From a virus: a stretch of DNA of 64,000 nucleotides. The notes under the pieces were generated by a model. That model was not told the origin of the DNA. It saw only the letters and a program-made list of their open reading frames with translations, and did not search any database. Below are positions 26,906-56,639 of the stretch, piece after piece. Both the position numbers and the translations under genes were made by a program. Location of the stretch: IMG/VR virus record IMGVR_UViG_3300008117_000001; one strand, written 5' to 3'. Within the stretch, counting starts at the first letter, position 1. Each line of letters begins with the position of its first letter.

Positions 26906-26932
26906 CAAAATGTTTTTGTAAAAAGGAAAGAT

Positions 26933-29908: not shown

Positions 29909-29912
29909 TTTT

Positions 29913-30551
29913 ATGGATTTAATAATCATTGGAGCGGGCGGACATGCTGTTGACCTGACCTATCTATCTGAAAATGATAAATATATTAAATGGAACATTA
30001 TAGGTTATCTAGATGATGATCCGGTAAATAGGTATAGCGACAAGACGATAGGGCCGGTTTCATCGCTGAGCGTTTATTTAAATAAATATAAAAATTTAAA
30101 ATATTGTATTGCCATTAACTCCTCAATAATAAGAAAAAAAATAGACTTACTCTATGGAGACGATGAAAAGTCAGCTAATTTGATCCATGAGACAGCTTTA
30201 ATAGGTAGCGAGTGCTCATATGGTAATGGCATTACTATGGGGCCATATTCTTTATTAACAACAAATGTTAAGATAGGCAAGCATGTCCATATTAATTCTG
30301 CAGCGTCGATTAATCAATCTAGCTTTATAGGAGACTACTGCACGGTAAGTCCCGGCGTTAGGGTTTGTGGGGATGTTAAAGTTGGCGACACCACTTCTAT
30401 AGGGGCTGGCGCAGTGATTATTAATTTCAAATCAATAGGAAGAGAATGTACACTGGGCGCTGGCACTGTAGTCATAGATAATATAAGCGATCATACAACT
30501 GTAGTCGGAGTGCCCGGTAGGGAAATAAAGAAGTTTGGCGAATATATTTAA
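29913..30551 (+). CDS. NeuD/PglD-family sugar O-acetyltransferase
   Basis: IIGAGGHA, GYLDD, hexapeptide repeats, VVGVPGR. Confidence 0.9.
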   Translation: MDLIIIGAGGHAVDLTYLSENDKYIKWNIIGYLDDDPVNRYSDKTIGPVSSLSVYLNKYKNLKYCIAINSSIIRKKIDLLYGDDEKSANLIHETALIGSECSYGNGITMGPYSLLTTNVKIGKHVHINSAASINQSSFIGDYCTVSPGVRVCGDVKVGDTTSIGAGAVIINFKSIGRECTLGAGTVVIDNISDHTTVVGVPGREIKKFGEYI

Positions 30552-32930: not shown

Positions 32931-35111
32931 TTATCTTCTTCTTGGAGCTCCAGCTACTGGAGCAACGGCTATAACTGCACCAGCAGCTATGACCGCTCTT
33001 CTTTGTCCTACATTTATGCTGGAACCCAGAGGCACATAAGTATTTAAGCTTCCGGAACCAAATATATTTATTTCTTCTTCAAATGAAGAACGTACTTCTT
33101 CTGGAGCATCTTGCACCGCACCAATAATCTCCAAAGCTTGCTCTTCTGTTATTTCATCTATCGGAATTTCAGCAAAGATCTCATCTGCTTGATCTCCGTC
33201 GATAGAAGATAGTACCTCTGCACTTGTAGCAATCTCAGTTGCTTGATCTTCTGTTATTCCATTTTCAATAATTGCATCGACGGCTTCTTGAACTTGCTCA
33301 TCAGTGACTGTGTCACTGCTTAAGACATCAACTAGTTCTTCGAATTGTTCATCACTTAATGGTTGATCTAAAACAGCGTCGATAACTGCAGTAAATTCTT
33401 CATCGCTTAGTGGCTCTTCAAACACTGTATCAAGTACTTCGGCAAAGGCTTCGTCACTTAGTTCTTCTGTAAACACTTGATCAATAACTTCTGTAAACTG
33501 TTCTGCAGATAGATCGCCAGATAATAATTCTGTAGCTGCAGCGACCAGCTCTTCTTCATTATCAGCTGAAGTTAAAATTTCATCTACGGCATTGGCAAAT
33601 TCTTCTTCAGTTAGATTTCCAGATAAGATTTCATCTACTTGATCAGATATCTCTTCTGGAACCGTAGTTTCGGGTTCTGGTTCTGTGATTTCTGGTTCAG
33701 GAATAATTATTTCTGGCTCTGTAGTTTCAGGTTCGGGTATTGTGATTTCTGGTTCAGGAATAATTACCGGCGGTTCTGTATCCGGAGGGATAACAACTGG
33801 AGGAATAACTTCTGGCTCAGTTGTAGTTGTAGTTTCTGGTTCTGTTACAACTGGAGCTTCAGTAGTAGTTGTCTCTGGTTCTGTAGTTGTTGTTGGAGGT
33901 TCTGTAGTTGTGGTAGTAGTAGTGGTCGTAGGCGGCGGTGGTGCGCTAACTACAAATTGAATACCAGAGGACGGTTGTGAGTACACACCGGTTGTGTCGT
34001 TATCTGCGCGAACCGTGAAGGTATACTCAGTGCCAAGACCACCAGTTCCCTCAAATAGTGAATAGCCAAGAAATATCTCGGTATTTAATGCGCTTGCATC
34101 GCCAACATTTCCGGTTGCAACGCCCCATCCAGCAGAGCCAGTGCTCCATGAGATTGCATACCGCTCTGGAGAAACTCCAGTATCGTCGTTTGCCACTTCC
34201 CAGTCAACAAGTACACCCTCACCGGTGTCTGTGACAGTAACGCTCTGGGGAACTCCAAGAAAGTTGGGTATAGTTGTTGTAGTTGTAGGTGTTTCGCCGG
34301 AAGTACCAAGAATACGAATGTAATACCCGCACCAGTTACTTCCCCAGTCATAGGTTGAGACGCCATTTGCAGTACTACCTACATAGGATGGGTAGTTGTC
34401 TACCAGATATGGTTCAATGATCGCGGTTTCGCCAACGTCAATTAAACCAGCGTGAACAGCAGCTGAAGAAAACGTTGAGTCATCTGTGTAGGGATTGGAA
34501 CCCCAGATTGCGCCACCAGAAGTTCCAGTGACAGTAAAGGCTTGATATGGACCGCAGCCATTATTTCCAGGAGTAAAAGGCAGTGGTGCTGGAGTGATAG
34601 ATAAATTTACATTATCAATGCTCGGACCGTAGTGCCCAGCCCAGTATCCATTGTCTATACCACTAAAGGTTATTGTAGCGGTTGTTGCTCCCTCAGGAAT
34701 GGTAATGGACAAACTGAAGTTTTCCAGGTTATGGGAAATAGATCTAGTGACCGTAGCTGAAGCGGGAGAGGGGGAGTCTGAGGATAGAGTTGCTGTCCAG
34801 GTGTCTGACACAGCACCTTGGCCTATGCTATTCGTCGTACTATTATTAACCACAAATGAAAAATTTATAATCTCTCCTGGTGTGACAGGAATAGATTGAA
34901 AAACTTCGCCCGTTTCATAAGAAAATTGCAAAGAGCCATTGAATAAAACTCCAGAGCCTCCGTTCTGGGAGACAGTCCATCCGGAGGATCCATTAAAGTC
35001 TCCATTGACAAAAGTGTTACTTGCTTGCGCACTGGATAGTGGTGCAAAAAATCCTACAACAGCTATACTTACCGTTGATAATCTAAATAAATTACTTATA
35101 AAATTCCGCAT
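32931..35111 (-). CDS. large secreted/surface protein: carbohydrate-binding-like domain, LCCL, FN3-like, acidic repeats
   Basis: Signal peptide; NGDF..GW..YGPSIDNV; VTG..IWGSNPYTDDS..SAAVHAG (LCCL); P/T/E linker; EQF.E.ID.V repeats; hydrophobic C-terminus; start chosen by GGAG SD. Confidence 0.8.
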   Translation of the reverse strand: MRNFISNLFRLSTVSIAVVGFFAPLSSAQASNTFVNGDFNGSSGWTVSQNGGSGVLFNGSLQFSYETGEVFQSIPVTPGEIINFSFVVNNSTTNSIGQGAVSDTWTATLSSDSPSPASATVTRSISHNLENFSLSITIPEGATTATITFSGIDNGYWAGHYGPSIDNVNLSITPAPLPFTPGNNGCGPYQAFTVTGTSGGAIWGSNPYTDDSTFSSAAVHAGLIDVGETAIIEPYLVDNYPSYVGSTANGVSTYDWGSNWCGYYIRILGTSGETPTTTTTIPNFLGVPQSVTVTDTGEGVLVDWEVANDDTGVSPERYAISWSTGSAGWGVATGNVGDASALNTEIFLGYSLFEGTGGLGTEYTFTVRADNDTTGVYSQPSSGIQFVVSAPPPPTTTTTTTTTEPPTTTTEPETTTTEAPVVTEPETTTTTEPEVIPPVVIPPDTEPPVIIPEPEITIPEPETTEPEIIIPEPEITEPEPETTVPEEISDQVDEILSGNLTEEEFANAVDEILTSADNEEELVAAATELLSGDLSAEQFTEVIDQVFTEELSDEAFAEVLDTVFEEPLSDEEFTAVIDAVLDQPLSDEQFEELVDVLSSDTVTDEQVQEAVDAIIENGITEDQATEIATSAEVLSSIDGDQADEIFAEIPIDEITEEQALEIIGAVQDAPEEVRSSFEEEINIFGSGSLNTYVPLGSSINVGQRRAVIAAGAVIAVAPVAGAPRRR

Positions 35112-35247
35112 AAAGACTCCCATCCTCTTGTGCAATAGTAAGACTAAACTCCTTGAATCAAATTGACTTTAACTAGCGCAAAGCTGAAAAATATGTTACT
35201 ATTGTTCTATAAAGCGCTTACTTTATCTATTTTTATAGAGGTTTTTA

Positions 35248-38200
35248 ATGGCCAATACCCTTGTTATAAAAAATTCAGGTACTTCTACGTCCGTACCCTC
35301 TGCTCTGACTCATGGTGAAGTAGCAATCAATTATGCAGACGGTAAAATATTTTATAAAAACGCATCTAATACTATCGTTGCTTCTAAATTAATTACTGCA
35401 ATTACTGGAACAACAGATCAAATAAATGTAACTGAAACATCTGGTTCTTTTGCAATTAGCTTACCATCCTCTATATCAGTTACCAATAATGTAACTGCTG
35501 GAGGCTATCTTATTTCTAACAACTCATCTGGTGATGAGGGTGGTGAAATATTCCTAAAGAAAGCTGTTACAAATACCACTCTGACTGGTGGTGTTACCAT
35601 TGATGTCTATCAAAACAGGCTTCGTTTTTTTGAGCAGGGGGGGACAGCCAGGGGTTTTTATATTGACATAAGTACTGGAGGCAATGGTGCCAGTACGGAC
35701 ATTCTTGCTGGCGTACAGGGCCCCCAAGGTGCCCAAGGCCCCCAAGGTGCAACTGGATCACAAGGCGCTACCGGCCCTCAGGGTACACAAGGCCCCCAAG
35801 GTGCTACGGGTTCCCAGGGTTCACAAGGGCCACAGGGGGACATTGGCCCCCAAGGTGCCACAGGTCCCCAAGGTTCTACTGGGCCACAAGGTTCTACCGG
35901 TCCCCAGGGAGATGTGGGTCCACAGGGTGCACAAGGAGCAACAGGATCTCAAGGCCCGCAAGGGGCAGTAGGAGCACAGGGAGCTACTGGGCCCCAAGGT
36001 TCAACTGGAGCACAAGGCGCTACGGGTCCACAAGGAGACGCTGGACCCCAAGGCGCAACTGGCCCCCAAGGTTCTACGGGAGCACAAGGGGCAACTGGAG
36101 CACAAGGACCACAGGGTGATATTGGTCCACAGGGGGCAACTGGACCACAAGGTGCACAGGGAGATGTTGGTTCACAAGGGGCTACTGGCCCCCAAGGTGC
36201 TCAAGGTGCCACAGGCGCGCAAGGCCCACAAGGCGCTACTGGCCCCCAAGGTGCCACTGGACCTCAGGGTTCAACTGGAGCACAAGGCGCTCAGGGTCCA
36301 GTTGGTGGAGATGGTCCACAGGGTGACGTTGGCCCTCAAGGCGCTACTGGCCCTCAGGGAGCAACAGGGGCTCAGGGTCCACAGGGGGCTACCGGAGCAC
36401 AAGGCTCAACGGGAGCCCAAGGAGCTACAGGCGCCCAAGGACCGCAAGGTCCTCAAGGAGATATAGGTCCTCAGGGAGCTACTGGTGCCCAGGGAGCTAC
36501 TGGTGCCCAAGGAGCCACGGGGGCACAAGGTGACACTGGACCACAGGGTTCGACTGGACCACAAGGAGATGTGGGTCCTCAAGGTGCAGTTGGCTCACAG
36601 GGAGCTCAAGGTGCAACGGGCCCCCAAGGTGCTACTGGCCCCCAAGGTTCTACTGGTCCTCAGGGGCCACAGGGCCCACAAGGAGATACTGGCCCGCAAG
36701 GTGCAACAGGTGCACAGGGTGCCACAGGCGCCCAAGGACCGCAAGGAGCTACTGGTTCTCAAGGCGCACAAGGAGTCCAGGGTTCACAAGGGCCACAAGG
36801 CCCAGTCGGAAACCTTAACTCACACGAATCAGTAAGAACCGCTACAAATGCAGCCCTTCCCAACTCTCCTACATATACTGCTGGTACTGCTGATGACAAT
36901 AACGGAACTGGCGATGGCGCGTATCTTCAAGCATCAACATTTGGTGCTCTTGTTGTTGACTCACGTACTGTTGTTGCCAACGACAGAGTTCTCGTTAAAA
37001 ACCAAATTAACCAAATCCATAACGGTATCTATGTTGTAACAACAGTTGGCGACGGCTCTACATATTGGCGACTAACTCGTACCTCCGACTTTGACAATAC
37101 CGATGGTACAGAAGTTCAAAACGGTGACTATGTTTTTGTTTCACTAGGAACAGCAAATACGGGTACATCTTGGATGATGAACTCAATCGGTACGAATCCA
37201 GACAATTCAATAATTATCGGAACAGACGGAATGAACTGGGTTAATGTTGGTGGTGCTGGTCCACAAGGCGCTCAAGGACCGCAAGGTGCTGGTGGAACAA
37301 TTGCATACTGGGGTTCATTTTGGTCAAATCAAGATCAAACCGCAGTAGCTGCAAATACAGCTTATGCAATAACTTATGATAATTATGATTCTAATAATTT
37401 TGGAGTAACACTTTCTAATAATTCAAGAATTAATTTCGGTTATGCTGGCGTATATTCTTTGACTTTCTCAGTCCAATGGGCAAACAGTGATAGTCAGATT
37501 CATGATGCAAATATCTGGTTTAAGAAGAATGGTTCTAATATTCCTGACTCAGATAGCCGATGGAGCGTTGTTGAAAGCCATGGCGGAACAGATGGTAGAG
37601 CCATAGGTACAGTTAACCTGGTCTTAAGCCTCAATGCTAATGACTATATTGAGTTGTTTTGGCAAACAACAAATACTGGTATATCACTTGATTATTTTCC
37701 AGCAGTTTCTCCAGCACCAGCAATTCCTTCTATTATATTTACCGCTGTTCAGGTTACCTATACACAAGTTGGACCTCAAGGGCCCCAAGGTGCAACGGGT
37801 TCTCAGGGGGCAACTGGACCCCAGGGCGCTACAGGCGCTCAAGGTGCTACTGGAGCGCAAGGGTCACAAGGTGCTACTGGAGCTCAGGGAGCCACAGGTG
37901 CCCAAGGAGATACAGGACCGCAAGGTTCAACAGGCGCTCAAGGTCCAATAGGACCTCAGGGTGACACTGGACCTCAGGGCCCTCAGGGATCTGTTGGCCC
38001 TCAAGGAGCCACTGGTCCTCAAGGAGCCACAGGTCCCCAAGGTGCAACTGGCCCACAAGGAGATGTCGGGCCCCAAGGTGCTACAGGTGCCCAGGGTGCA
38101 ACCGGACCACAGGGGGCACAGGGAGCCACAGGTCCTCAGGGCGCAACAGGCGCCCAAGGTGCTACTGGCGCTCAAGGAGATGTTGGTCCACAGGGTTCCG

Positions 38201-39504
38201 TGGGTCCACAGGGACCACAAGGTTCTATTGGACCTCAAGGTGAAACGGGGTCACAGGGTGCAACTGGTCCACAAGGTGCTACTGGTGCCCAAGGTGCTAC
38301 AGGAGCCCAAGGCGATACTGGTCCCCAAGGTTCAACTGGACCACAGGGACCACAGGGTGACACAGGTCCTCAAGGTTCAACTGGTGCTACTGGCCCCCAA
38401 GGAGCTACCGGTGCTCAAGGTGCTACTGGCCCTCAAGGCGCCACTGGCCCTCAAGGCGCCACTGGCCCACAAGGTGATATCGGTCCTCAGGGTGCCCAAG
38501 GAGCCACAGGCCCTCAAGGAGCTACAGGCGCTCAAGGAGCTACCGGTCCTCAAGGTGCTACAGGTCCCCAGGGAGACATGGGACCGCAAGGATCAACAGG
38601 TCCACAAGGGCCCCAAGGTGCAACTGGAGCACAAGGTGCTACTGGTCCAGTAGCTGGTTCTGCTAATCAAGTTGTCTATAAAGATGGTTCTAATGCAGCT
38701 GCTGGCAGCGCAAACCTTACCTTTGACGGAACACGCCTAACAGCAGCAGCCTTAACGGTTGATACAAATACTCTTTATGTTGATGCAACTAATAATCGTG
38801 TTGGTGTTGGCACTTCTTCACCATCTGTTGAGCTCGATGTTCTTGGAACTCAAGTTATTCGTGTGGCATCCACGCAAGATGGTATTCAGTTGGCCGGTCG
38901 TGCTGGCGGAACTGGATCATTGTCTACAAAATTTATACCAACTACGTTGACCGCAAACAGAACATTAACTTTACCAAATAAATCTGGAACTGTTGCTACA
39001 ACAGCTGATATTGGTCTTGTTTACTTGTCAAGTGGCACATTCTCTGGCGCAACAGTAGTCAACTTGCAGTCAATATTTTCGTCTACTTATGATAATTATC
39101 GTCTTGTATTAACAAACTTGCAAGCAGCAAGCGGAGACTTTTATCTCTTCTATATCAATATGCTTTCTGGTGGCACAGCAGCAGCAACAGCTTACTACTA
39201 CGCTATGCAGGGACTTACATTTGGCGGAGTCGCAGACAATTATACTGGGCAAAATTCAAGCATAGGAGTATGTGGTGGAATATCTAACTCGGATATTCAT
39301 ATTGTTATGGATATATCTCGCCCATTTGTTGCAGATAGAACAATTATTTCAGCGCACTGTGCGTCGGCATGGGGTAACTATACATCCACTGTTCAACATA
39401 CAACGGCATCGTCTTATGATGGAATACAGCTTAACAATTTCAGATTAGGAGCAAGCACTGTCAATCTTTCTGGAACATGGAAACTTTATGGATATACAAA
39501 CTAA
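35248..39504 (+). CDS. collagen-like tail fibre / virion fibre protein
   Basis: N-terminal [18 protein letters not shown]; two long Gly-X-Y blocks (GPQ/GAT/GAQ); [14 protein letters not shown] and [14 protein letters not shown] fibre motifs. Confidence 0.9.
35716..36804 (+). repeat. collagen Gly-X-Y block 1
   Basis: Uninterrupted G-X-Y triplets with varied synonymous codons. Confidence 0.9.
37771..38646 (+). repeat. collagen Gly-X-Y block 2
   Basis: Uninterrupted G-X-Y triplets. Confidence 0.9.
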
Positions 39505-39516
39505 TAGGAGATTAAA

Positions 39517-39702
39517 ATGCCACGTGTGAAATACACATATGATGGTTCAACTGAAACGGAAACGACAGCAAACTTTTCTGGAGCAGAAGAAACCGCTCAG
39601 GATGCACTGGATGCATCGAATCAGTCTGATTACAATACAAACTCTAAACAAGTTAGTAGAGATATAGCCGATAATCGTCGGTTTATAATGGAGGTCATCT
39701 AA
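39517..39702 (+). CDS. small acidic protein after fibre
   Basis: 61 aa, AGGAG SD, TAATG coupling. Confidence 0.65.
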   Translation: MPRVKYTYDGSTETETTANFSGAEETAQDALDASNQSDYNTNSKQVSRDIADNRRFIMEVI

Positions 39703-40076
39703 TGGCGTTGCAAATGAAAAGGCTATCTGGTCCAGAAAATTTTGCTGTAGCAGACACCGCAGAAGATTTATATACAGTTCCAAGAAATACTGGTTATACT
39801 ACAACTGCTGTTATTAAAGAGATTATATTATGTAATACCGCAGCATCTAGTGCAACAGTGACGCTTTGGTTAAAGCCTAAGAATGTTACGGTAGGCACCG
39901 ATCATATTTTTATCAATTCATTAACACTTGCTGCAAACGAAACTGTTACACTGTCAACATCCTTAGTTTTAACTAATTCTGATAATACAGCTGGTGATAC
40001 TTATTCTGATAAAATAAGAGGTAAAGCTAGCACTACTACGGTTAATTATATGATCAATGGATATGAAGAATACTGA
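39702..40076 (+). CDS. virion-associated beta-rich protein
   Basis: LYTVP..TTAVIKEIILCN..ANETV pattern typical of tail-region genes. Confidence 0.7.
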   Translation: MALQMKRLSGPENFAVADTAEDLYTVPRNTGYTTTAVIKEIILCNTAASSATVTLWLKPKNVTVGTDHIFINSLTLAANETVTLSTSLVLTNSDNTAGDTYSDKIRGKASTTTVNYMINGYEEY

Positions 40077-40081
40077 TAATT

Positions 40082-40858
40082 ATGGGAAAGTTTATTAGAG
40101 TTAACAATACTACAACTGGTGTGAGTTTTGTTGGTGGCACTTCGTCTACATACTCTGATTTACTAACATTGGGTAACCTAGTTGACGTTGCTGATCAAAT
40201 ATACGGATCAGGAGCCGATGGTTCTGTTACCTTTGATGGTTCAAGTACCGTCTTATCAATGGCCCCATCAACTTCAGTATACACTATGACAAGGGATATA
40301 TATTGCTATAATTTAACTTTGTCAGCAAACGTTCGTTTAAATCCAGCTGGATATAGAATATTTGTACAAAATAGTTTAACTTTTGGTAGTGGTTCTACTA
40401 TAGGTTTCACAACAGGCTTTTCTACTGCCGGATCAATTCAGCAAGGGGGCGCAAACAATACTGCTGTCACCCATAGTCTTGGTGGTTCTAGCGCTACTCA
40501 AACTGCAACTGCACCGACAGCTGCAACTGGTGGCACTGATTATTATAAGCAGTCGTTCCAAGCTGTCCGAGGCTACTCCATAACAGGGTCCTCAACTACT
40601 CCAACCTTTTTGCGTGGTGGAGCTGGTGGCGTTTCTGGAGCTGGTGGTGGCGTTGTAATACTCGCAGCAAGATTTATCACTGTTTCAAGTGGCACTGGTT
40701 ATATTAAGGCACCAGGTACAAGCGGTTCTGGTGGCGGTGGTGGCGGAGCAATTATTGTCATATCTTCATCCGCAGCTTTAAATAGTGGAATAACAACTGA
40801 CGTTACTGGTGGAACCAGCTGCGCTGCCGGAAATGTTATTTATTGTCAGGTAGCTTAA
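40082..40858 (+). CDS. Gly-rich fibre/tail protein
   Basis: IYGSGADGSVTF; GAGGGVVILAARFI..GSGGGGGGAIIVI. Confidence 0.78.
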   Translation: MGKFIRVNNTTTGVSFVGGTSSTYSDLLTLGNLVDVADQIYGSGADGSVTFDGSSTVLSMAPSTSVYTMTRDIYCYNLTLSANVRLNPAGYRIFVQNSLTFGSGSTIGFTTGFSTAGSIQQGGANNTAVTHSLGGSSATQTATAPTAATGGTDYYKQSFQAVRGYSITGSSTTPTFLRGGAGGVSGAGGGVVILAARFITVSSGTGYIKAPGTSGSGGGGGGAIIVISSSAALNSGITTDVTGGTSCAAGNVIYCQVA

Positions 40859-40860
40859 TT

Positions 40861-42651
40861 ATGAGTAACCGTATTCGTAGACTTAATCAAACTAAAACTC
40901 AACGTGATGATTCTATTTTTGGCGAAGGAACAGACGGTGATGTAACCATAACTAGTGGAACTACATATTTAACTAAAGATATGTATTACACTAATTTAAC
41001 AGTTGATTCTGGAGCAACATTATTTACGAATGGATTTCGTATATTTGTTAACGGAACACTTACAAATAATGGCACCTTAGGTATGCCCGCGGCAACTTTG
41101 TCAAATATTTCCGATGGATCAGGCACAGTATCTGGTAGACAGAACGCATTAAACCCAGCAAGCGCCTGGGGCACAAGTAATACAACAATTGATCCCACAG
41201 TCCTGCATGATTTAGACGATTCAATTTCTGGCTGGCTTATAACAAGCGCTGGAACAATAACAAAAATTGGTGGCGGTTCTCTTGGCACTTCCGGTACATC
41301 GGGAAACGTTACAGCAGCAACAGGACCATTTGCTGGGAACGCTGGTAACTTTATCGGAGCAACTGTTGGTCAAGCTGGTGGTGCCGGAAATGCTGGCACT
41401 GCGGGAAATGCTGCTACTGCTGGAACGGGCGGAGTTGGCGGGCCTGGTGGAGGGCTGGTAATAATTATTGCAAAAACTATAGCTGGATCTGGAACAATAG
41501 TTAGTTATGGTTATGCAGGCGGCGCAGGCAATCCAGCAACCCAAGGTAATCCCGGTTCAGCTGGAAACCCCGCACCAAATATAACTGGATATCATAATTC
41601 TGGTAACTTTCCACATAATGCTGGTGGTACTATTGTTAATCCAACTTCTGGTACTCCACACCCTTCTGGGCATAATGCTGGATCACACCCCCATCCATCT
41701 GGAGCGCATCCGCATCCAGATGGCGGCCCTCATGCTAACCCTCATAATGCGGTTCTTCATACCGCAACCGGGCACCATAATGCATCGAACACACATATCC
41801 ACGCGCCCCATGGGCACAATGCCGTAACACATCGATCTGCCCCATATGTAACATATGTTTTAGGTCATAATGGTGGTTCCGCTCATAACTCTGGTCACGG
41901 CAGTCATCCCCATGGTGTTAATGGACATAGAGTTTCTGGTCATAATGGAAACTCAAATGCATCTCATGGCTCCCATGCATCAGGAATTAGTGTTAACTCA
42001 ATTGGCTTCAGCAACCATAATGGAACGGTAAACAAAAACTCAACAATTAATTCTGGTCATGGCCATCACGCTGGCAATCATAACGCTGGCAATCATCCAT
42101 ATTCTCATCCATCAGGATCATTTCCTAATAACCCAGCTTCTCACCACAATGGACACGTTTACACGAATGCAGGACATGGTCACCACCATGTCGCTGCTGC
42201 ATCGCACCCCGCTACAAATGCTCCGCATACTAACATTCCTAGCGTTGGATTAAACTCTGGCCACAATGGCGTCCAGCACCACCACGCAGGGCATCATCCA
42301 CACCCTGCTGGATCACATCCGCACCCTGCTGGTAGTACAGGGCCATCTCCCCATAGTGGCACACCTCATCCTTCTGGCCACAACGCTGGTAGTCATCCCC
42401 ACAGTGCTGCTACCGTTAATGTAATAACAGGAGCTGTAACCAGTAATAGAACTAGTGCCCCAAGTCATAACGCTACAAATGTTAACTTTAGTGGTGGTAC
42501 TGGTGGAGCAGCTGGAGCAGCAGGTGCTGCCAATGCAGGAAATCCAGGAAATCAAGGTAGTACAGGTGGAATAATTGTGGTTACAAGAAATCCTGGAAAT
42601 GTTTCACCACAAATAGGCCATTCAAATTATTCAAAAATAATAGATATTTAA
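40861..42651 (+). CDS. Gly-rich fibre protein with about 295-aa His-rich insertion
   Basis: IFGEGTDGDVTI (paralogous to previous gene); GGPGGGLVIIIAKTI; about 60 His counted, many in HxH dyads. Confidence 0.85.
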   Translation: MSNRIRRLNQTKTQRDDSIFGEGTDGDVTITSGTTYLTKDMYYTNLTVDSGATLFTNGFRIFVNGTLTNNGTLGMPAATLSNISDGSGTVSGRQNALNPASAWGTSNTTIDPTVLHDLDDSISGWLITSAGTITKIGGGSLGTSGTSGNVTAATGPFAGNAGNFIGATVGQAGGAGNAGTAGNAATAGTGGVGGPGGGLVIIIAKTIAGSGTIVSYGYAGGAGNPATQGNPGSAGNPAPNITGYHNSGNFPHNAGGTIVNPTSGTPHPSGHNAGSHPHPSGAHPHPDGGPHANPHNAVLHTATGHHNASNTHIHAPHGHNAVTHRSAPYVTYVLGHNGGSAHNSGHGSHPHGVNGHRVSGHNGNSNASHGSHASGISVNSIGFSNHNGTVNKNSTINSGHGHHAGNHNAGNHPYSHPSGSFPNNPASHHNGHVYTNAGHGHHHVAAASHPATNAPHTNIPSVGLNSGHNGVQHHHAGHHPHPAGSHPHPAGSTGPSPHSGTPHPSGHNAGSHPHSAATVNVITGAVTSNRTSAPSHNATNVNFSGGTGGAAGAAGAANAGNPGNQGSTGGIIVVTRNPGNVSPQIGHSNYSKIIDI

Positions 42652-42940: not shown

Positions 42941-43531
42941 ATGAAATTTGTTGAGCACGCTCCGTGCATTGTTCAGTATGATAATATTTTTAAAGCAGAA
43001 AAGTTTTTAGAATTATTAGAATCTGAGTGCAATGAATCATGGGGCTATCTAAGCTGGCAACGTTCAACTGTCGGCACTGGTGAAGTCTCAGATATGCGTA
43101 CATCTTTTGGCTGCGAACTTTCTCCTCTAAGTGTAGATAACATTGAAGTTGATAGAGTCAAGCCTCTTGTTGAAGAGTGGAGAAATTTGTGGTCCAAAAT
43201 AGACCCAATTGTTTGGGATTATAGAAATAATTTTGAATTAGACCTAGAAGCTGATGAGGGCTATAGAGTGCTCAAATACAATGGTGGCGCAGAATATAAA
43301 GCTCACCATGATCATTTTAGGACAAACGAAAGAAGTTTAAGCCTAGTTGCATTTCTTAATGATAATTATACGGGTGGTAATTTAGTCTTTCCAAAATTTA
43401 ACGTATCAATAAAACCAAAAGCCGGAAGTGTAATACTATTTCCTTCCAACTTTCCGTATACCCATATAGCTGAACCTGTTGGTAAAAGCGACAATTCAAT
43501 TAAATACTCTTTAGTGACGTGGTTTAGATGA
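42941..43531 (+). CDS. 2OG-Fe(II) oxygenase (prolyl-4-hydroxylase-like)
   Basis: LKYNGGAEYKAHHD, FLNDNYTGGNL, FPSNFPYTH, KYSLVTW. Confidence 0.9.
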   Translation: MKFVEHAPCIVQYDNIFKAEKFLELLESECNESWGYLSWQRSTVGTGEVSDMRTSFGCELSPLSVDNIEVDRVKPLVEEWRNLWSKIDPIVWDYRNNFELDLEADEGYRVLKYNGGAEYKAHHDHFRTNERSLSLVAFLNDNYTGGNLVFPKFNVSIKPKAGSVILFPSNFPYTHIAEPVGKSDNSIKYSLVTWFR

Positions 43532-43686
43532 ATCCAGAAGACGAATATCCAAATATTGAATCTTTTCCAGAAACCAACTTTGATCATACATCTGGTAGAT
43601 ACATAACTGATAATGAAATTATTAACTGCACTATGTTAGATGCTTCTTTTATATTTAACCTGGAGAATGAAGAAGATGGGATATAA
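43528..43686 (+). CDS. small acidic peptide (52 aa)
   Basis: Own translation MNPEDEYPNIESFPETNFDH...ENEEDGI; ATGA overlap. Confidence 0.5.
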   Translation: MNPEDEYPNIESFPETNFDHTSGRYITDNEIINCTMLDASFIFNLENEEDGI

Positions 43687-43945
43687 TTTACAAAATGATT
43701 TTGATTACGTTAGCAACACATTGCTAACAATGGCATCCGTTGTTGGGGTTGACATTAATAATCTTTCCGATGTTACTCTCAATGATTTAATGGAGGCATG
43801 TGCTAATACATTTGGTAGCGCAGAACATAATCAAGATTCCCCAATTGCATCGGCTCAGTATGCAGAATTAAGAAGATATCAGGCCTCCTTTAAAAGATTT
43901 TGGTATATGTATAGTGTTTTAAATTGGAGAATAAATAATGCTTAA
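43676..43945 (+). CDS. small protein, putative paralogue B
   Basis: VSNTLLTMASVVGVDINNLS; GGAG SD. Confidence 0.65.
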   Translation: MGYNLQNDFDYVSNTLLTMASVVGVDINNLSDVTLNDLMEACANTFGSAEHNQDSPIASAQYAELRRYQASFKRFWYMYSVLNWRINNA

Positions 43946-44633
43946 TAATTATGATTTGTTTAAATTGACAAATATTCTTTCTCACACCACGTCATCAGAT
44001 ATTAATCCCATTGATATTGCCAACAATAATTCTATTATTATCCAAGATGAAATTAATACTGGAGTAGATAGAAGTAGAAATGCTATTGGATATTCTGTTC
44101 AGTTAAATTGGTTAGATCAAATAAGTGATCCATCAAGTTCCGCTATGGATATAGAGATATTATCTCGGTCGATGATAGAAATTATTATTAGAATAAAAAA
44201 TTCTTCAAAACTATTATTTTTAGGCATGAATTATATTTTAGGTTCTACACTTAAATCTATTGTAGATAATGTCGACTATGCGAATATAATGAACTTAAAA
44301 TATATGGAAGACTATATTAATGAACCTATTGATGAATCTAATGTCATATCTATGCAAGACATAGAACAGGGTAACATAGATCTAGATTACGATACTGTAT
44401 TTTTAGATACAGAATTAGTTAGTCATGATTTTAATATCGTAGATAATATTTGGGAAAAACTATCTAGCGGTGCACTTTTAATTTTAAATACAGTAAATGA
44501 TTTTGGATTTCTTTATTCATCCAAAAATCAGCATCCTTACTTCGAATACTTGTCACGTTTAACGCAAGACGAAGATAAACATGTGTTTCATATTCCAGTA
44601 GCAACCGGTTTTACCTTAGTGGTTAAAAAATGA
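43938..44633 (+). CDS. class I SAM-methyltransferase-like protein (divergent)
   Basis: LLFLG, YDTVFLD, LSSGALLILN, FHIPVATGFTLVVK. Confidence 0.55.
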   Translation: MLNNYDLFKLTNILSHTTSSDINPIDIANNNSIIIQDEINTGVDRSRNAIGYSVQLNWLDQISDPSSSAMDIEILSRSMIEIIIRIKNSSKLLFLGMNYILGSTLKSIVDNVDYANIMNLKYMEDYINEPIDESNVISMQDIEQGNIDLDYDTVFLDTELVSHDFNIVDNIWEKLSSGALLILNTVNDFGFLYSSKNQHPYFEYLSRLTQDEDKHVFHIPVATGFTLVVKK

Positions 44634-46105
44634 ATCAAAAAAAAATAGTTATTGTTGGATCTGGAACAGCGGGACTTGTTACTGGATTAACAATTAAAAG
44701 TTATTTTAAAAATTATGATGTAACAATAATATCATCCAGCAAGATGGGGATAGTTGGTGTTGGCGAAGGTTCTACGGAACATTGGCGCTTGTTTCAGGAG
44801 ATGGTCGGCATAGACGTCCATGATATGATCAAGAACGCAGACATCACTCATAAATATGGGATACGTTATGAAAACTGGACCAATCATACTCCAGATTATT
44901 TCCATAGTGTAGGAGAAATTGGGTTAACCATTGGTGGCTTTTGGGCAGGGTATGCTACAGCCCTAGAGAATAATCGTTTGTTAACAAACACATATTCTTG
45001 GCGCGGATTAATAGAAAATAAAATAATTGATCAGGGTGACAAAACACATTATGGAACAAACCAGTACCATTTTGATACTTTTAAGTTAAATAAATATTTG
45101 GTAGAAGTATCAAAAAATAAAGGTATTTTGTTTATAGATGATGAAGTGACAAACGTTCAAGTAGATGAAGACGGATTTATAGAATCGGTTTTTCTTTCTG
45201 AATTAAAAAAAGATATTGCAGCTGATTTTTTTATTGATGCAACAGGATTCCATAGGCAGCTCTTAAGCAAGATAGGCGATCAAACATTCATAGATTATAG
45301 AAAGTATTTACCGTGTAATACGGCAATTGCGTTTCCAACTGAATCGGACCCTTCTGGTCAAATAAGACCATACACAAGGGCTAGAGCTCTTAAGAATGGT
45401 TGGATGTGGGAAATACCCACTCAAAAAAGACGTGGAAACGGATATGTATTTTCGTCTGATTTCTGTACCGTAGACCAAGCTATAGCTGAAGCTTCTGAAG
45501 TGCATGGCTTTGAAGTTGTGCCAGCAAAAGTGATTAATTTTAAGGCAGGATATTTTAAAGAAACATGGAAAAATAATTGCATTGCAGTGGGGTTAGCGGC
45601 TTCTTTTGTTGAGCCATTAGAAGCTACGTCCATATCTACTTCAATTCAACAGGCAAAATTAATCTGTTCCTATCTTCCTACTTTCGATAAAAATAGAAAT
45701 TATGGGATCAAAGAGTATCACCGTATTATGGATTCCATGATGAATAATATTCTGTGCATGATATCTTTGCATTATATTTCGGATAGAAATGACACTGAAA
45801 TGTGGGCTGCACAGCAAAAAGCAGATAAGCCTGAACTATTGGAACACTTACTGCAACTGTGGAATGTACGCTGTCCAGAATTTTCAGATATCCCTTCAAC
45901 TGGATTTGAGCTTTTTGGATCAGCTCATTTATGGCATGTTGCCCAGGGTCAGGGTGTTTTAAATCCAGAAATGGCGTCATTGCAACTAGACGCTTATGGT
46001 TCTCGAAAAAATGTGATAGAATTCATTGCAAATTTTTCTAAGCAATTAGTTACTCAAAGATTGGTAGATCATGCGCAAGCACTCGCAGCAACTGCAAATA
46101 GTTAG
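44630..46105 (+). CDS. flavin-dependent halogenase (tryptophan halogenase family)
   Basis: IVGSGTAG, IVGVGEGST, FIDATG, GWMWEIP (WxWxIP), GYVFS, VEPLEATSI. Confidence 0.92.
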   Translation: MNQKKIVIVGSGTAGLVTGLTIKSYFKNYDVTIISSSKMGIVGVGEGSTEHWRLFQEMVGIDVHDMIKNADITHKYGIRYENWTNHTPDYFHSVGEIGLTIGGFWAGYATALENNRLLTNTYSWRGLIENKIIDQGDKTHYGTNQYHFDTFKLNKYLVEVSKNKGILFIDDEVTNVQVDEDGFIESVFLSELKKDIAADFFIDATGFHRQLLSKIGDQTFIDYRKYLPCNTAIAFPTESDPSGQIRPYTRARALKNGWMWEIPTQKRRGNGYVFSSDFCTVDQAIAEASEVHGFEVVPAKVINFKAGYFKETWKNNCIAVGLAASFVEPLEATSISTSIQQAKLICSYLPTFDKNRNYGIKEYHRIMDSMMNNILCMISLHYISDRNDTEMWAAQQKADKPELLEHLLQLWNVRCPEFSDIPSTGFELFGSAHLWHVAQGQGVLNPEMASLQLDAYGSRKNVIEFIANFSKQLVTQRLVDHAQALAATANS

Positions 46106-46892
46106 TCCAAAAATTTTCAATGATATCCCTAAGCTTAAAGAAGGTCAGATTTTTTTAGCTCCACAATCATTATTTTTGATGGATGATTTGTGTAGACCTT
46201 TTCTTAATTTAGGCAATTGGCCAGATTGGTGGAGAAATCTTACTGGTGAAGAGGGCAGCATAAAAAGATGTTCGGGAACATCAGACTATATATCAACAGG
46301 CTTTACAATTCCTTTGTGGACAAAGCTAATGTTTCGCCCATCTATGGATCATCGTTCATGGGATGTTAAGTTCGATCTAACTAATGAGATTGGTGATTTT
46401 GGCATAGAGGGCTTTTCTTTTGCGCAAACTGGCGAATGTCCAGTAACGAAAGCTAGAAAAATACAAAACGCTAATTATGTTAAAGTTATTAATCCATGGT
46501 TAATAAAAACTCCACCTGGATGGTCTAGTCTATTTTTGCCCCCATTATGGGATCCAAATCCAAATTACACTATGCTACCAGCTGTAGTGAATACGGATTA
46601 CTATCACAATGCGCATATGGTTATTAATGTTTTAACAGATCAACCATTTGAGCTAGAGGCAGGGAGACCTATGTGGCACGTCATACCGTTCCCTAGAACA
46701 AAATCTAAAGATATAATATGGGGAGACGAGAACGCATATTCATTATTGCGTTGGCGTGGTTTCGGTGGTCCATTCATGCCTAAAAAACAAAAAAGTAAAT
46801 ATAAGAAAATGGAACGAGAAACAGATGAAAATCTTTCTGTGGAAAAGAAGTCATTTTTTAGTAAACTATTCAAATCAAACAAGGGGTCATAA
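46071..46892 (+). CDS. DUF6065-like hypothetical protein
   Basis: NPWLIKTPPGWSSLF..LPAVVNTDYY..IPFPR (start uncertain). Confidence 0.6.
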   Translation: MRKHSQQLQIVSPKIFNDIPKLKEGQIFLAPQSLFLMDDLCRPFLNLGNWPDWWRNLTGEEGSIKRCSGTSDYISTGFTIPLWTKLMFRPSMDHRSWDVKFDLTNEIGDFGIEGFSFAQTGECPVTKARKIQNANYVKVINPWLIKTPPGWSSLFLPPLWDPNPNYTMLPAVVNTDYYHNAHMVINVLTDQPFELEAGRPMWHVIPFPRTKSKDIIWGDENAYSLLRWRGFGGPFMPKKQKSKYKKMERETDENLSVEKKSFFSKLFKSNKGS

Positions 46893-47128
46893 TGGATTTT
46901 GTAATATCAGAAAATCAAAAAAAATTAATTAAAGACTCTGCTAAAAAGAAGCTAGAGTTAGAGATTTACTCTGCGGCTATTGTAGCCGGTATAGATCCTG
47001 AATCATTGGAATTATCAAATGGTATTTTTACATGGACACCATCAACTACTGATGATTCTTGGATTTCTCAAGCTGAAAAACACCTGCGTCAAGTATTAGA
47101 CGTATATGAAAACTTTTTGGCGCACTAA
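46892..47128 (+). CDS. small acidic protein, putative paralogue C
   Basis: LELEIYSAAIVAGIDPESLE; TAATG coupling. Confidence 0.7.
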   Translation: MDFVISENQKKLIKDSAKKKLELEIYSAAIVAGIDPESLELSNGIFTWTPSTTDDSWISQAEKHLRQVLDVYENFLAH

Positions 47129-47143
47129 CACTGGATATTTTAA

Positions 47144-47836
47144 ATGAGTGAAATTAAATTTTCTTGGCCAGCTGGAAAAAGTTCTGCAATATTTTTGGCT
47201 GAAAATATAATAGATGAAAATACATGTTCAAATGTACTTACGGAATGCAAAAAGTATTATCAAACATTTTTTTCTCCTGGCCCAACCCTTGGTGGAATAG
47301 ATTCATCTGTAAAAAATAGCATGGATATGAGTTGGTCCTATCAGGCTTTGCTTGACGCCGAAGTGCCCACAGAACCATTGACTACATATGAAAATATAAT
47401 AACTCAAAAACTTTTTCAAACTATAGAAATTTACAGAGAAGCCTTTAGGTGGCTTTGGACCTGGACTAACATATCTGATACTGGATTTAGAGTTCAGGAA
47501 TACAGAAAAGGCATAGGGTTCTATAGGGAGCATATCGATGGCGGAATAGGCCCTCAAGAGGCTAGCAATAGAATTTTGGCTGCAATTATATATTTAAATA
47601 CAGTTGAAGTTGGTGGGGGAACCTTTTTTAGAGAACATGATTTAATGGTTCCGGCAAGAGCAGGATCTATTTGCCTGTTCCCAACAAACTGGACTCATCC
47701 GCATCAAGGTTGTGTTCCAATATCTGATGATAAGTGGATTATTAGTACGTTTATAGTGCCCACTCCAGTGTCAGTCGATTCTAAGGAAATTATACTTAGC
47801 TCTACACCAATGCCAAATGACAACAAAAAATCTTGA
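47144..47836 (+). CDS. 2OG-Fe(II) oxygenase
   Basis: GFYREHID, IYLNTVEVGGGT, FPTNWTHPH, KWIISTF. Confidence 0.9.
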   Translation: MSEIKFSWPAGKSSAIFLAENIIDENTCSNVLTECKKYYQTFFSPGPTLGGIDSSVKNSMDMSWSYQALLDAEVPTEPLTTYENIITQKLFQTIEIYREAFRWLWTWTNISDTGFRVQEYRKGIGFYREHIDGGIGPQEASNRILAAIIYLNTVEVGGGTFFREHDLMVPARAGSICLFPTNWTHPHQGCVPISDDKWIISTFIVPTPVSVDSKEIILSSTPMPNDNKKS

Positions 47837-48440
47837 TACCTATTACGATCCATTAACTAATAGGACGTTATTTGTTAGGCCAAAACCTTTTTTGTTGAAA
47901 AATGTTTTTTCTGATGAAGATTTTTTAAATATTAAAAATAAAATTCAGTTTGAAAAAGATAACAGCATTCTACAATACGCAAAGTTCTTGGGAAGATTTT
48001 CTATTATCAAAGAAAATTTTCTTCAAGATGAACATAATATTCTTTTGGAAAAGGCAAGGGGGATATTTTCTAAAGACCTTCTACCAACTTACTGCGCATA
48101 TGGCTTGTATAAAGGATTTAGAGCTAATCTACCCAAACACGTAGATGATAATGGTTGCACTTATACGATTGATCTATGTGTGTCTTATAAAACTCGCTGG
48201 CCCATTTTTGTAGAAGGCCAAGAATTTGATCCACAAGAAAATGAGGCTGTATGCTATTATGGTGAGGATCAATATCATTGGAGAAATGAATTTACTGATC
48301 CATCAAATAATGAGGTTGAAATGATTTTTTTCCACTTTGCAGAACCAGAACATTGGTATTTTACGATTGGTCCAAATCATAAAGAAGAAATTGTAAGATT
48401 AAGAATTGAGCACGAGAATAAGATTGGAAAAATAAAATGA
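47817..48440 (+). CDS. 2OG-Fe(II) oxygenase
   Basis: LPKHVD, YYGEDQYHWR, IFFHF. Confidence 0.8.
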   Translation: MTTKNLDTYYDPLTNRTLFVRPKPFLLKNVFSDEDFLNIKNKIQFEKDNSILQYAKFLGRFSIIKENFLQDEHNILLEKARGIFSKDLLPTYCAYGLYKGFRANLPKHVDDNGCTYTIDLCVSYKTRWPIFVEGQEFDPQENEAVCYYGEDQYHWRNEFTDPSNNEVEMIFFHFAEPEHWYFTIGPNHKEEIVRLRIEHENKIGKIK

Positions 48441-48724
48441 AAATTCTATTTAATAAGATCCTTGCAGCATTAAAAACTGCTAGTAGCAGATCTTACTGGA
48501 ACAAGGTTAATACTGTAGAAGCGTGGGGGTTTGCGACTAAGATCGCTATTATTTTCCCAGGACTTTTATTTGGCTATCAATGGTGGTGGCTGTATATTTT
48601 CGCAATTGCATCAAGCCTATCTTTAATCTGGACATCAACAGAAAAGACTCTGCCAACTATTATTTTGTTCAATGTGTTGTGGGTTATTTTGGCAACAACG
48701 GCGATTGTTAGGCACTTCGTATGA
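48437..48724 (+). CDS. multi-TM membrane protein
   Basis: Three hydrophobic segments in 95 aa. Confidence 0.7.
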   Translation: MKILFNKILAALKTASSRSYWNKVNTVEAWGFATKIAIIFPGLLFGYQWWWLYIFAIASSLSLIWTSTEKTLPTIILFNVLWVILATTAIVRHFV

Positions 48725-49494
48725 TCTCAATTATAACACCTACATATAACACAGATAAAAGTGTTCTTGCTCGAACCTGGGCGTCTTTAAAAGCTCAAAC
48801 ATATACGGATTGGGAATGGGTCATTATAGACGACTCTACTAATGAAAATGTCTGGCATCAGGTATATGGCTTTGCTTCCGACGAAAGATATAAAATTCAA
48901 ATGCACAAGAGTCATGTCCACTCTGGAAACATAGGCCTGAATAAAAGACGTGGATTTATGCTTGCAGAGGGGCAAATACTTGTTGAGCTAGATCATGACG
49001 ATGTGCTTACTGCAGACGCTCTACAGGAGATTTACGAGGCATTCCAGGCCAATCCTGAGGTAGGCTTTGTCTATTCTGATTGGTGCGAGATTTTGCCTGA
49101 TGGACAATCTGGAGTTTATCCTAAAGGTTGGGCTTTTGGATATGGCTCAGAGTACTGGTCTGAGGAGCATGGCGTTTGGGTTATGTCTTCCCCGGAAATA
49201 AATCCAACTACCATGAAGCATATTGTTTCTGCGCCCAACCATGTTAGAGCCTGGAGATCAAGCCTGTACCACCAGCTGGGTGGCCATAATCCAGACTACG
49301 AAGTTGCCGATGACTATGAATTAATTGTTAGAACGTTTTTAGCAACTAAGTTTTATCATATTAAAAAACTACTGTATAAACAGTACATCAGCCCCGCTAC
49401 TGCGCAAAGACAAAAGAATGATTTGATTCAAAAATATGTAGCTGACATTTCAGCTAGGTACTCTGATGATATAGATAAGGTTTTCCAGATTTAA
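48721..49494 (+). CDS. glycosyltransferase family 2
   Basis: SIITPTYN, VIIDDS, VELDHDD, ADDYEL. Confidence 0.9.
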   Translation: MISIITPTYNTDKSVLARTWASLKAQTYTDWEWVIIDDSTNENVWHQVYGFASDERYKIQMHKSHVHSGNIGLNKRRGFMLAEGQILVELDHDDVLTADALQEIYEAFQANPEVGFVYSDWCEILPDGQSGVYPKGWAFGYGSEYWSEEHGVWVMSSPEINPTTMKHIVSAPNHVRAWRSSLYHQLGGHNPDYEVADDYELIVRTFLATKFYHIKKLLYKQYISPATAQRQKNDLIQKYVADISARYSDDIDKVFQI

Positions 49495-56547: not shown

Positions 56548-56566
56548 GGTTACCTCCAGTGTTTTG

Positions 56567-56639
56567 CTCCGAGAGCAGGGCTCGAACCTGCGACCCGCTG
56601 ATTAACAGTCAGCTGCTCTGCCAACTGAGCTATCTCGGA
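56567..56639 (-). tRNA. tRNA-Asn (GTT)
   Basis: TCCGAGA/TCTCGGA+G acceptor; GCTC D-arm; GCTGA-CTGTTAA-TCAGC; GGTTCGAGCCC T-arm; no CCA. Confidence 0.95.

What the first reader, a model, noticed from the sequence alone, without database searches (positions are those of the whole stretch)
40861..42651. His-rich fibre protein with many HxH dyads and an out-and-back repeat architecture
Seen: a Gly-rich tail-type domain is split by a roughly 295-aa segment holding about 58 of the protein's ~60 His (~20%), with about ten HPH/HGH/HIH dyads plus HHH runs. The 16-mer SGTPHPSGHNAGSHPH occurs near the start (41647-41694) and near the end (42355-42402) with different codons, so the repeat appears to be conserved at protein level. 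Known: HxH dyads in the T4 gp37 needle coordinate iron in the trimer, and each chain runs out and back. Inference: an unusually long metal-loaded needle or adhesin, possibly binding the host through metal uptake or chelation.
Basis: partly seen in the sequence, partly recalled or inferred. Interest (0 to 1): 0.82.

Follow-up and report, generated by a model that had tools for sequence, protein, structure and literature searches.

The report
Histidine-packed insert in phage fibre protein
An uncultured large phage encodes a tail-fibre-region protein whose small, conserved beta-helix scaffold carries a 305-residue loop that is one-fifth histidine; it belongs to a widespread, unstudied family and is probably a metal-binding host-contact module, but it is not a copy of the T4 iron needle.

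Summary
The gene at 40861-42651 encodes 596 aa with 60 His, 58 of them in aa 245-536. An exact 16-residue repeat brackets this segment, written with 12 different codons.

The HxH argument fails. There are 12 HxH dyads against 11-12 expected from composition. In the T4 gp37 needle all 14 His sit in 7 HxH, 7.8 times the expected number. The words that are enriched here are HPHP and GHN.

The protein belongs to an uncharacterised metagenomic phage family. The scaffold is conserved: a small beta-solenoid with Gly-rich layers. One loop carries an insert of about 50 to 1000 aa, with a median of 16% His against 0.8% in the flanks. The insert is under purifying selection, yet it is swapped or remodelled between lineages and gains or loses repeat units.

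AlphaFold2 gave no confident structure for the insert as a monomer. The trimer-with-metal test could not be run.

Best reading (0.45): an exposed, metal-coordinating specificity or adhesion module in the tail-fibre gene cluster. Its layout is arm, core, arm, which fits an out-and-back path.

Other first readers of this scan flagged the same feature on four related genomes. None of those notes had been checked.

The parts
40861..42651 (+). CDS, 596 aa: His-insert fibre-module protein
   Evidence: 23 full-length homologues at 42-81% identity.
40861..41580 (+). N flank, aa 1-240: conserved N-terminal module, beta-solenoid rungs and Gly-rich triplet segments
   Evidence: Conserved in alignments A1/A2. 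pLDDT 60-89 in the window model and above 90 in the P0014 model. Weak PHROG 13336 match to aa 20-102.
41581..42495 (+). His-rich insertion, aa 241-545: 58 His, no Glu, 1 Asp
   Evidence: pLDDT about 28 as a monomer. dN/dS 0.036 against the closest homologue.
41647..41727 (+). N-proximal arm: 16-mer copy 1 (41647-41694) followed by an HPHP motif
42277..42402 (+). C-proximal arm: HPHPAG motifs followed by 16-mer copy 2 (42355-42402)
42496..42651 (+). C flank, aa 546-596: Gly-rich triplets plus the last beta-solenoid strands and a conserved C-terminus
40082..40858 (+). Upstream paralogue, 258 aa: same N-terminal module and Gly-rich rungs, no His insert
   Evidence: BLASTP E 1e-7. hhalign probability 98.9%. 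Precedes the His gene in 45 of 45 related loci.
39702..40076 (+). 124-aa conserved partner gene (PHROG 20100, function unknown)
   Evidence: Present in 42 of 45 loci.
35248..39504 (+). 1418-aa collagen-like tail-fibre protein
   Evidence: Pfam Collagen E 1e-96. PHROG tail-fibre families. A collagen-like gene lies upstream of the His gene in 18 of the 25 related loci examined.
42941..43531 (+). 2OG-Fe(II) oxygenase (prolyl-4-hydroxylase-type family PF13640)
   Evidence: A homologue lies within 6 kb in 39 of 45 loci.
44630..46105 (+). Flavin-dependent (tryptophan-type) halogenase
   Evidence: Pfam E 1.6e-102. A homologue lies within 6 kb in 36 of 45 loci.

Best explanation
The protein belongs to the tail-fibre gene cluster of an uncultured phage of about 200 kb. 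Its conserved part is a small right-handed beta-solenoid with Gly-rich layers, built from aa 1-240 and 546-596. Between the last rungs it carries a 305-aa excursion laid out as arm, core, arm: HPHP/GHN-rich arms of the same motif at both ends and a unique core. I read this excursion as an exposed specificity or adhesion module. Its dense, acid-free array of imidazoles would coordinate divalent transition metals (Zn, Ni, Cu or Fe). The metal would either organise a loop that is otherwise poorly ordered, or bridge it to the host surface. Shown: the composition, the insertion site, family-wide length variation, purifying selection, modular exchange and conserved gene neighbourhood. Inferred: exposure on the virion, metal binding and a role in host contact.
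For: Across 126 family members the insert is 50-338 aa (median 188). Four giant forms of 1066-1326 aa carry 95-128 His. Median His is 15.8% in inserts against 0.8% in flanks. Some short inserts combine Cys and His clusters typical of metal sites. The insert is constrained residue by residue: against L083 it has dN/dS 0.036 and 89% identity with synonymous sites saturated. 57 of 60 His are kept, 31 of them with the other codon. Other pairs give omega 0.12-0.18. Yet pairs with near-identical flanks have diverged inserts: L008/L003 have an N flank at 87% identity (dS 0.46) and an insert at 46%. Close relatives differ by one 13-aa repeat unit. A conserved scaffold with an exchangeable variable part is the pattern seen in receptor-binding proteins. 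The AF2 model of the shortest homologue (pLDDT 84, pTM 0.75) places strands from both flanks in one solenoid. PHP motifs cluster at both ends of inserts family-wide, and HP/PH counts in the two arms correlate at r 0.90. The gene order collagen-like fibre, 124-aa gene, insert-less paralogue, His gene is conserved. The N-terminal module occurs in proteins annotated as a putative adhesin in Halorubrum viruses.
Against: No metal, oligomer or virion data exist. AF2 gives pLDDT of about 28 for the insert, so it may simply be disordered. About 11 of 126 members have low-His inserts, either Pro-rich or Cys/hydrophobic, so His is not essential to the scaffold's role. The correlation between the arms is inflated by relatedness of the sequences. 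The fibre cluster lies apart from the main structural module, according to unchecked notes.
Confidence: 0.45

Rival explanations
1. A T4 gp37-type needle. Three chains run out and back, and paired His (HxH) from each chain coordinate a column of Fe ions on the threefold axis.
For: The insert must leave and return at one site in the scaffold. The arms at both ends share motifs. In this window HPH is enriched (6 against 1.1 expected, p 0.0003), and 5 of the 6 lie in the two arms. gp37 likewise has HxH on both the outbound and the return segments.
Against: Overall HxH is at chance level in the window (12 against 11-12 expected) and below it in the family (0.85). In gp37 all 14 His form 7 HxH, 7.8-fold over expectation. 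Non-Pro HxH are fewer than expected, 6 against 9.7. The middle residue is Pro here and S, T or G in gp37. There is no Pfam, PDB-sequence or fold match to gp37. Most His lie outside any dyad.
Confidence: 0.15
2. A metal-free, intrinsically disordered His/Asn/Gly/Pro region. It would act as a flexible spacer, or as a pH-sensitive sticky brush on polyanionic cell-wall polymers.
For: pLDDT is about 28 across aa 241-543. The composition is low-complexity, and hydrophobic residues (V, I, L, F, Y) are only about 11% of the core. Length varies about 20-fold and repeat copy number changes. No consistent long periodicity was found.
Against: Position-specific conservation is stronger than in the folded N flank (dN/dS 0.036 against 0.14; 89% against 75% identity), which is unusual for a spacer constrained only in composition. 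Both copies of the 16-mer are kept exactly despite 15 synonymous differences. Conserved beta-like stretches occur inside the core.
Confidence: 0.2
3. The insert is mainly a substrate for the neighbouring tailoring enzymes (2OG-Fe(II) oxygenases, flavin halogenase, glycosyltransferases). The modified residues, not the metals, would create its function.
For: An oxygenase homologue lies within 6 kb in 39 of 45 related loci and a halogenase in 36 of 45. This holds also where the enzymes sit upstream instead of downstream. Several glycosyl-, methyl- and acetyltransferases flank the fibre genes.
Against: All the loci come from related phages, so shared gene order is weak evidence. Low-His family members (P0163, P0185) also have an oxygenase 2-3 kb downstream, so the link is not specific to His. 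The collagen-like fibre is an equally likely substrate.
Confidence: 0.1

Closest known systems
T4 gp37 long-tail-fibre needle domain (aa 811-1026; seven Fe ions bound by HxH motifs, as described in PMC11705849)
   Same: A phage fibre-region protein with many His. The chain must go out and come back. His-bearing motifs occur on both the outbound and the return parts.
   Different: gp37 has 6.5% His, all of it in HxH (S, T or G in the middle), enriched 7.8-fold. This protein has 19-21% His, HxH at chance level, Pro in the middle of half the dyads, no detectable homology, and an insert length that varies 20-fold.
gp38 adhesin of phage S16/T2 (PDB 6F45 chain D): conserved Gly-rich motifs separating hypervariable segments
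   Same: Conserved Gly-rich triplet motifs flank a hypervariable, exchangeable segment. It lies in a tail-fibre gene cluster.
   Different: The fold match is weak: Z 6.7 for the window model and 4.9 for the better P0014 model, both inside the noise range. There is no sequence match. This protein has one huge His-rich insert rather than several short loops.
Small right-handed beta-solenoids (bactofilin 6RIA; Caldicellulosiruptor adhesin domain 4WA0)
   Same: Best fold matches to the scaffold: Z 6.3-9.4, rmsd 1.9-3.7 A over 78-105 residues, with ranges running from the N flank to the last residue.
   Different: A generic fold resemblance only, below the tool's own significance guide (Z 8 or more for the good model). 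No sequence relation.
Nvjp-1, the His/Gly-rich jaw protein of Nereis virens (over 25 mol% His, 35 mol% Gly; disordered; hardened by Zn; PMC9465683)
   Same: Extreme His plus Gly content. Predicted disordered on its own. A plausible multivalent ligand for Zn or other transition metals. A halogenase is encoded nearby, and Nereis jaws are reported to be halogenated (a reference cited in PMC9465683).
   Different: An analogy only: no homology. Nvjp-1 is rich in Asp, Glu and Tyr, whereas this insert has almost no acidic residues and is rich in Asn, Ser and Pro. The host organism and biological context are unrelated.

Membership tests
T4 gp37-type HxH iron needle | His residues organised as HxH dyads, far above what composition gives | tested here: not met
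   gp37 aa 811-1026 has 7 HxH against 0.9 expected (p<0.0002). The window insert has 12 against 11.0 expected (p 0.39). The family has 513 against 601.
T4 gp37-type HxH iron needle | Sequence or profile similarity to the gp37 C-terminal region or to tail-fibre Pfam families | tested here: not met
   No Pfam family at E<0.1. No PDB sequence match for the insert at E<10. The A2 profile hits only Gly-triplet low-complexity segments.
T4 gp37-type HxH iron needle | Homotrimer with metal ions on the threefold axis | not testable with these tools
Only monomer models could be made.
T4 gp37-type HxH iron needle | Chain runs to a tip and returns (out-and-back) | tested here: inconclusive
   Both flanks contribute to one solenoid and the motif layout is arm, core, arm. 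The path inside the insert is not modelled (pLDDT about 28).
gp38-type polyglycine adhesin (S16/T2) | Conserved Gly-rich motifs separated by hypervariable segments | tested here: met
   Invariant Gly columns flank the variable insert.
gp38-type polyglycine adhesin (S16/T2) | Fold similarity to the polyglycine-II sandwich of 6F45 chain D | tested here: inconclusive
   Z 6.7 (122 aligned, 20% identity) and Z 4.9 (rmsd 8.0), both within the noise range.
PHROG 13336 (function unknown) | Profile match over the family model | tested here: inconclusive
   E 4.4e-5, covering only aa 20-102 against profile positions 4-87 of 339.
Nvjp-1-like His/Gly metal-crosslinked proteins (functional analogy) | At least 20% His with abundant Gly, and metal-dependent assembly | tested here: inconclusive
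   The composition criterion is met for His (21%) but Gly is lower (16%) and acidic residues are absent. Metal binding could not be tested. No homology.

The most novel reading that the evidence does not exclude
A widespread class of phage fibre-tip proteins uses a loop of variable length made mostly of His, Asn, Gly and Pro as a multivalent metal array. It would hold tens of ions per chain, and more in the 95-128-His giants. It would not follow the gp37 HxH rule. The metal would fold or stiffen an arm-core-arm stalk and set host specificity, and the neighbouring oxygenase and halogenase might further tailor it. This would be a viral counterpart of metal-hardened His-rich biomaterials and a new viral reservoir of trace metals in natural waters.
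Probability: 0.25. Interest if true: 0.8.

Novelty: new variant of a known kind. Interest (0 to 1): 0.6.

Why it matters
Metal sites in phage fibres are currently recognised by HxH motifs copied from T4 gp37, and proposals that phages act as iron ligands in natural waters rest on counting such motifs (PMC11705849). This family shows that dense His arrays in fibre-region proteins can be much larger (58 His here, up to 128 per chain) and can follow a different sequence logic. It also shows that counting HxH without a composition control misleads. If the insert binds metal and contacts the host, it offers three things: a new type of exchangeable specificity module, a test case for metal-dependent folding of low-complexity protein, and a sizeable trace-metal load per virion. 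The family has no cultured representative, no Pfam family and no structure.

Tried and rejected
- **Trimer with Fe:** Complex prediction (3 copies of aa 236-550 plus 4 Fe) was not available, so the trimer and metal question stays open.
- **Other unavailable tools:** The atlas fold library is absent. The protein-atlas search gave no usable hit.
- **Cultured phages:** megablast and tblastn of the gene, its 124-aa neighbour and a 447-aa neighbour found nothing. Only the 55-aa N-terminal module matched two Halorubrum viruses.
- **Nearest held virus record:** G001 lacks the gene.
- **Bacterial genomes:** the scan found only the short N-terminal module in assorted MAGs and one Bacillus, so there is no host clue.
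- **Fold searches:** Foldseek against PDB found nothing at E<=0.001. BFVD matches had TM of 0.43 or less, to Gly-rich, collagen-like or tail-fibre proteins of uncultured phages.
- **Insert in other scaffolds:** a search with the insert alone found only 9 proteins, all of the same family.
- **Regular long repeat:** none is consistent. Only local lags of 5-7 residues are enriched.
- **Recent DNA slippage:** only 2-3-copy runs of 9-21 nt, and the 16-mer copies are 73% identical in DNA.
- **Oxygenase acting specifically on His:** weakened, because low-His members keep the oxygenase.
- **'Insert more conserved than flank' as a general rule:** rejected. It holds for the window against L083 but reverses in other pairs, which points to mosaic exchange.

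Full report
**1. What is in the sequence**

The ORF at 40861-42651 (+) is real. The TTG at 40843 is a mechanical start. The ATG at 40861 gives an N-terminus, MSNRIRR, that matches homologues (MANRIRR, MAGRIRR). It lies two bases after the stop of the upstream gene.

- The protein has 596 aa and 60 His. 58 of them lie in aa 245-536 and 56 in aa 252-514.
- That core is 21% His, with Gly, Asn, Ser, Pro and Ala making up most of the rest. It has one Asp and no Glu.
- The two copies differ at 15 of 48 nucleotides, in 12 of 16 codons, all synonymous.
- Shuffled segments never gave an exact repeat longer than 8 residues.
- At the DNA level there are only 2-3-copy runs of 9-21 nt, so this is not a recent slippage product.

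**2. The HxH argument does not hold**

The 12 HxH dyads are what 19-21% His produces by chance: 11.0-11.8 are expected, with permutation p of 0.39-0.51. Across 126 family members there are 513 observed against 601 expected.

I took T4 gp37 from the T4 record as a positive control. Its needle (aa 811-1026) has 14 His, all in 7 HxH dyads. That is 7.8 times the expected number, and the middle residue is always S, T or G.

The words that are enriched in the window insert are different:

| Word | Observed | Expected |
|---|---|---|
| HPH | 6 | 1.1 |
| PHP | 6 | 0.55 |
| HPHP | 4 | 0.1 |
| GHN | 6 | 1.1 |
| HxH without Pro in the middle | 6 | 9.7 |

Five of the six HPH dyads lie in the two end regions of the insert. 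A gp37-like use of these few dyads is therefore not excluded, but most of the His cannot be explained that way.

**3. A family with a conserved scaffold and a variable insert**

The protein matches no Pfam family. It has only a weak N-terminal match to PHROG 13336, of unknown function.

Large protein searches gave these counts:
- 93 relatives in the word-indexed search.
- With a profile against 50%-identity representatives: 42 at E<=1e-30, 430 at E<=1e-10 and 2918 at E<=1e-3. The weaker ones share only a 55-residue N-terminal module or Gly-rich segments.
- None carries an informative name.

In the alignments the flanks are well conserved and the middle is not. Between two anchor glycines the insert runs from 50 to 338 aa, with a median of 188. 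Four giant proteins of 1066-1326 aa carry 95-128 His.

| Measure | Insert | Flanks |
|---|---|---|
| Median His | 15.8% | 0.8% |
| 10th percentile His | 5.7% | not computed |

About 11 of 126 members have low-His inserts. These are Pro-rich (P0041) or Cys/hydrophobic (P0057). Some short inserts combine Cys and His clusters. A search with the insert alone found only nine proteins, all in this family.

**4. Structure**

*Window protein.* The AF2 model with a 20-sequence alignment gives pLDDT 60-89 for most of the flanks and about 28 across aa 241-543.

*Shortest homologue.* P0014 (371 aa), modelled with a 126-sequence alignment, gives pLDDT 84 and pTM 0.75. The flanks are above 90 and the roughly 70-aa insert is at 47-75.

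*Fold searches.*
- The best structural matches are small right-handed beta-solenoids: bactofilin 6RIA (Z 6.4-9.3, rmsd about 2 A over 78 residues) and an adhesin domain, 4WA0 (Z 6.3-9.4).
- The matched ranges run from about residue 20 to the last residue. The C-terminal strands therefore complete the N-terminal solenoid.
- The scores are within the tool's stated noise range, so this is fold-level resemblance only.
- The S16 gp38 adhesin (6F45_D) scores Z 6.7 and 4.9, which is inconclusive.
- Foldseek against PDB found nothing. BFVD gave weak matches to Gly-rich, tail-fibre or collagen-like proteins of uncultured phages.

*Consequence.* The insert sits between rungs of one domain, so it must leave and return at the same place.

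*The upstream paralogue.* The 258-aa protein encoded at 40082-40858 shares the N-terminal module (E 1e-7; hhalign probability 98.9%). By eye it also has the two Gly-rich/hydrophobic rungs, separated by only a short Gly linker.

**5. Layout of the insert: arm, core, arm**

In the window, the same 16-mer plus HPHP(S/A)G motifs sit at both ends and the centre is unique.

In a sister clade (P0015, P0099, P0100) both ends are tandem arrays of a 13-residue unit (HPAGHNPHVPG plus two residues) around a unique core. P0100, at 91% identity, has one extra unit.

Family-wide, PHP motifs peak in the second and in the eighth to ninth deciles of the insert. HP/PH counts in the first and last 30% correlate at r 0.90, against about 0.7 with length. 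This correlation is inflated by relatedness of the sequences.

The layout fits a stalk of two similar arms carrying a distal core. The fold itself is not shown.

**6. Selection and exchange**

Against the closest homologue (L083, protein P0001), synonymous sites are saturated:

| Region | dN/dS | Amino-acid identity |
|---|---|---|
| Insert | 0.036 | 89% |
| N flank | 0.144 | 75% |
| C flank | 0.117 | 88% |

57 of 60 His are kept, 31 of them with the other codon.

Other pairs reverse the picture:
- L008/L003 have N flanks at 87% identity (dS 0.46) but inserts at 46%.
- L010/L008 have flanks at 87% and inserts at 62%.
- Where divergence is low (L015/L022), omega is 0.18 in the insert, against 0.15 in the N flank and 0.07 in the C flank.

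The window's own N flank resembles one lineage (P0004-P0006) while its insert resembles another (P0001). So the insert is functionally constrained but moves or is remodelled as a module. This is the behaviour expected of a specificity determinant.

**7. Context**

The gene lies in a fibre cluster:
- a 1418-aa collagen-like fibre at 35248-39504;
- small genes, including a 124-aa gene (PHROG 20100);
- the insert-less paralogue;
- the His gene;
- an 82-aa gene, a 2OG-Fe(II) oxygenase, and later a flavin halogenase, a further oxygenase and a glycosyltransferase.

In 45 related loci the paralogue precedes the His gene in all 45 and the 124-aa gene is present in 42. An oxygenase homologue lies within 6 kb in 39 and a halogenase in 36, including loci where these enzymes lie upstream. 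The loci come from related phages, and low-His members also keep the oxygenase. A specific enzyme-substrate link therefore remains a lead only.

Related contigs reach 190-200 kb. The window also encodes a DnaE-type polymerase. An LPxTG-type protein in the window hints at a Gram-positive host. That would argue against entry through outer-membrane siderophore receptors.

**8. Verdict**

The gp37 reading is not supported as argued, although an out-and-back topology is plausible. The best reading, at 0.45, is an exposed, exchangeable His array that binds transition metals and takes part in host contact.

The rivals are a true gp37-like needle (0.15), a metal-free disordered brush or spacer (0.2) and a substrate for the tailoring enzymes (0.1).

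The decisive tests could not be run here: a multimer-with-metal prediction, metal analysis of recombinant protein, and virion proteomics. Notes from other first readers show the same feature on four related genomes. Those notes were unchecked.

Noticed in passing
window 22398-23741 (+): A 447-aa protein with a signal peptide, an Ig-like (Big_1) domain, a Thr-rich stalk, an HDHSTHDH patch, then LPTTG, a hydrophobic helix and a basic tail. This is a classical sortase sorting signal, which suggests a Gram-positive host.
   Followed up: partly
window 26933-30551 and 42941-49494: The fibre genes are flanked by many tailoring enzymes. Upstream there are three family-2 glycosyltransferases, an FkbM-type methyltransferase and a PglD-like acetyltransferase. 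Downstream there are two 2OG-Fe(II) oxygenases with Pfam hits (42941, 47144), a flavin halogenase (44630) and another glycosyltransferase (48721). This may be a system that modifies virion proteins.
   Followed up: partly
window 35248-39504 (+): A 1418-aa fibre protein with two long collagen-like GXY blocks (mostly G-P/A/S/T-Q-G-A/S-T-G) separated by a globular domain. It ends in a non-collagen C-terminal domain. Its length varies from 733 to 1522 aa in related loci.
   Followed up: partly
window 26815-26906 and 56566-56639: tRNA-Ser(GCT) and tRNA-Asn(GTT) are phage-encoded. Ser and Asn are among the most used residues in the His-insert protein (61 and 65 of 596). There is no tRNA-His in the window.
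   Followed up: no
window 40861-41580 compared with L083, L003 and L006: The gene is mosaic. The window's N flank lacks an 11-residue segment present in P0001-P0003 and resembles the P0004-P0006 lineage, while its insert is closest to P0001. This points to recombination inside the gene.
   Followed up: partly
window 32931-35135 (-): A 734-aa protein with an LCCL domain is encoded on the opposite strand just upstream of the collagen-like fibre. Homologues at 60-85% identity hold the same position in 11 of 45 related loci.
   Followed up: no
window 11232-14567 (+): A DnaE-type (Pol III alpha) polymerase whose nearest cultured-phage relatives are Streptomyces phages at about 40% identity. No closer cultured phage was found for any gene tested.
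   Followed up: partly
L019 6663-8732; L021 6665-10036; L023 and L024 6665-9889: Related loci encode extreme versions of the family: a 689-aa protein with 16% His overall, and proteins of 1074-1123 aa with 8-10% His.
   Followed up: no
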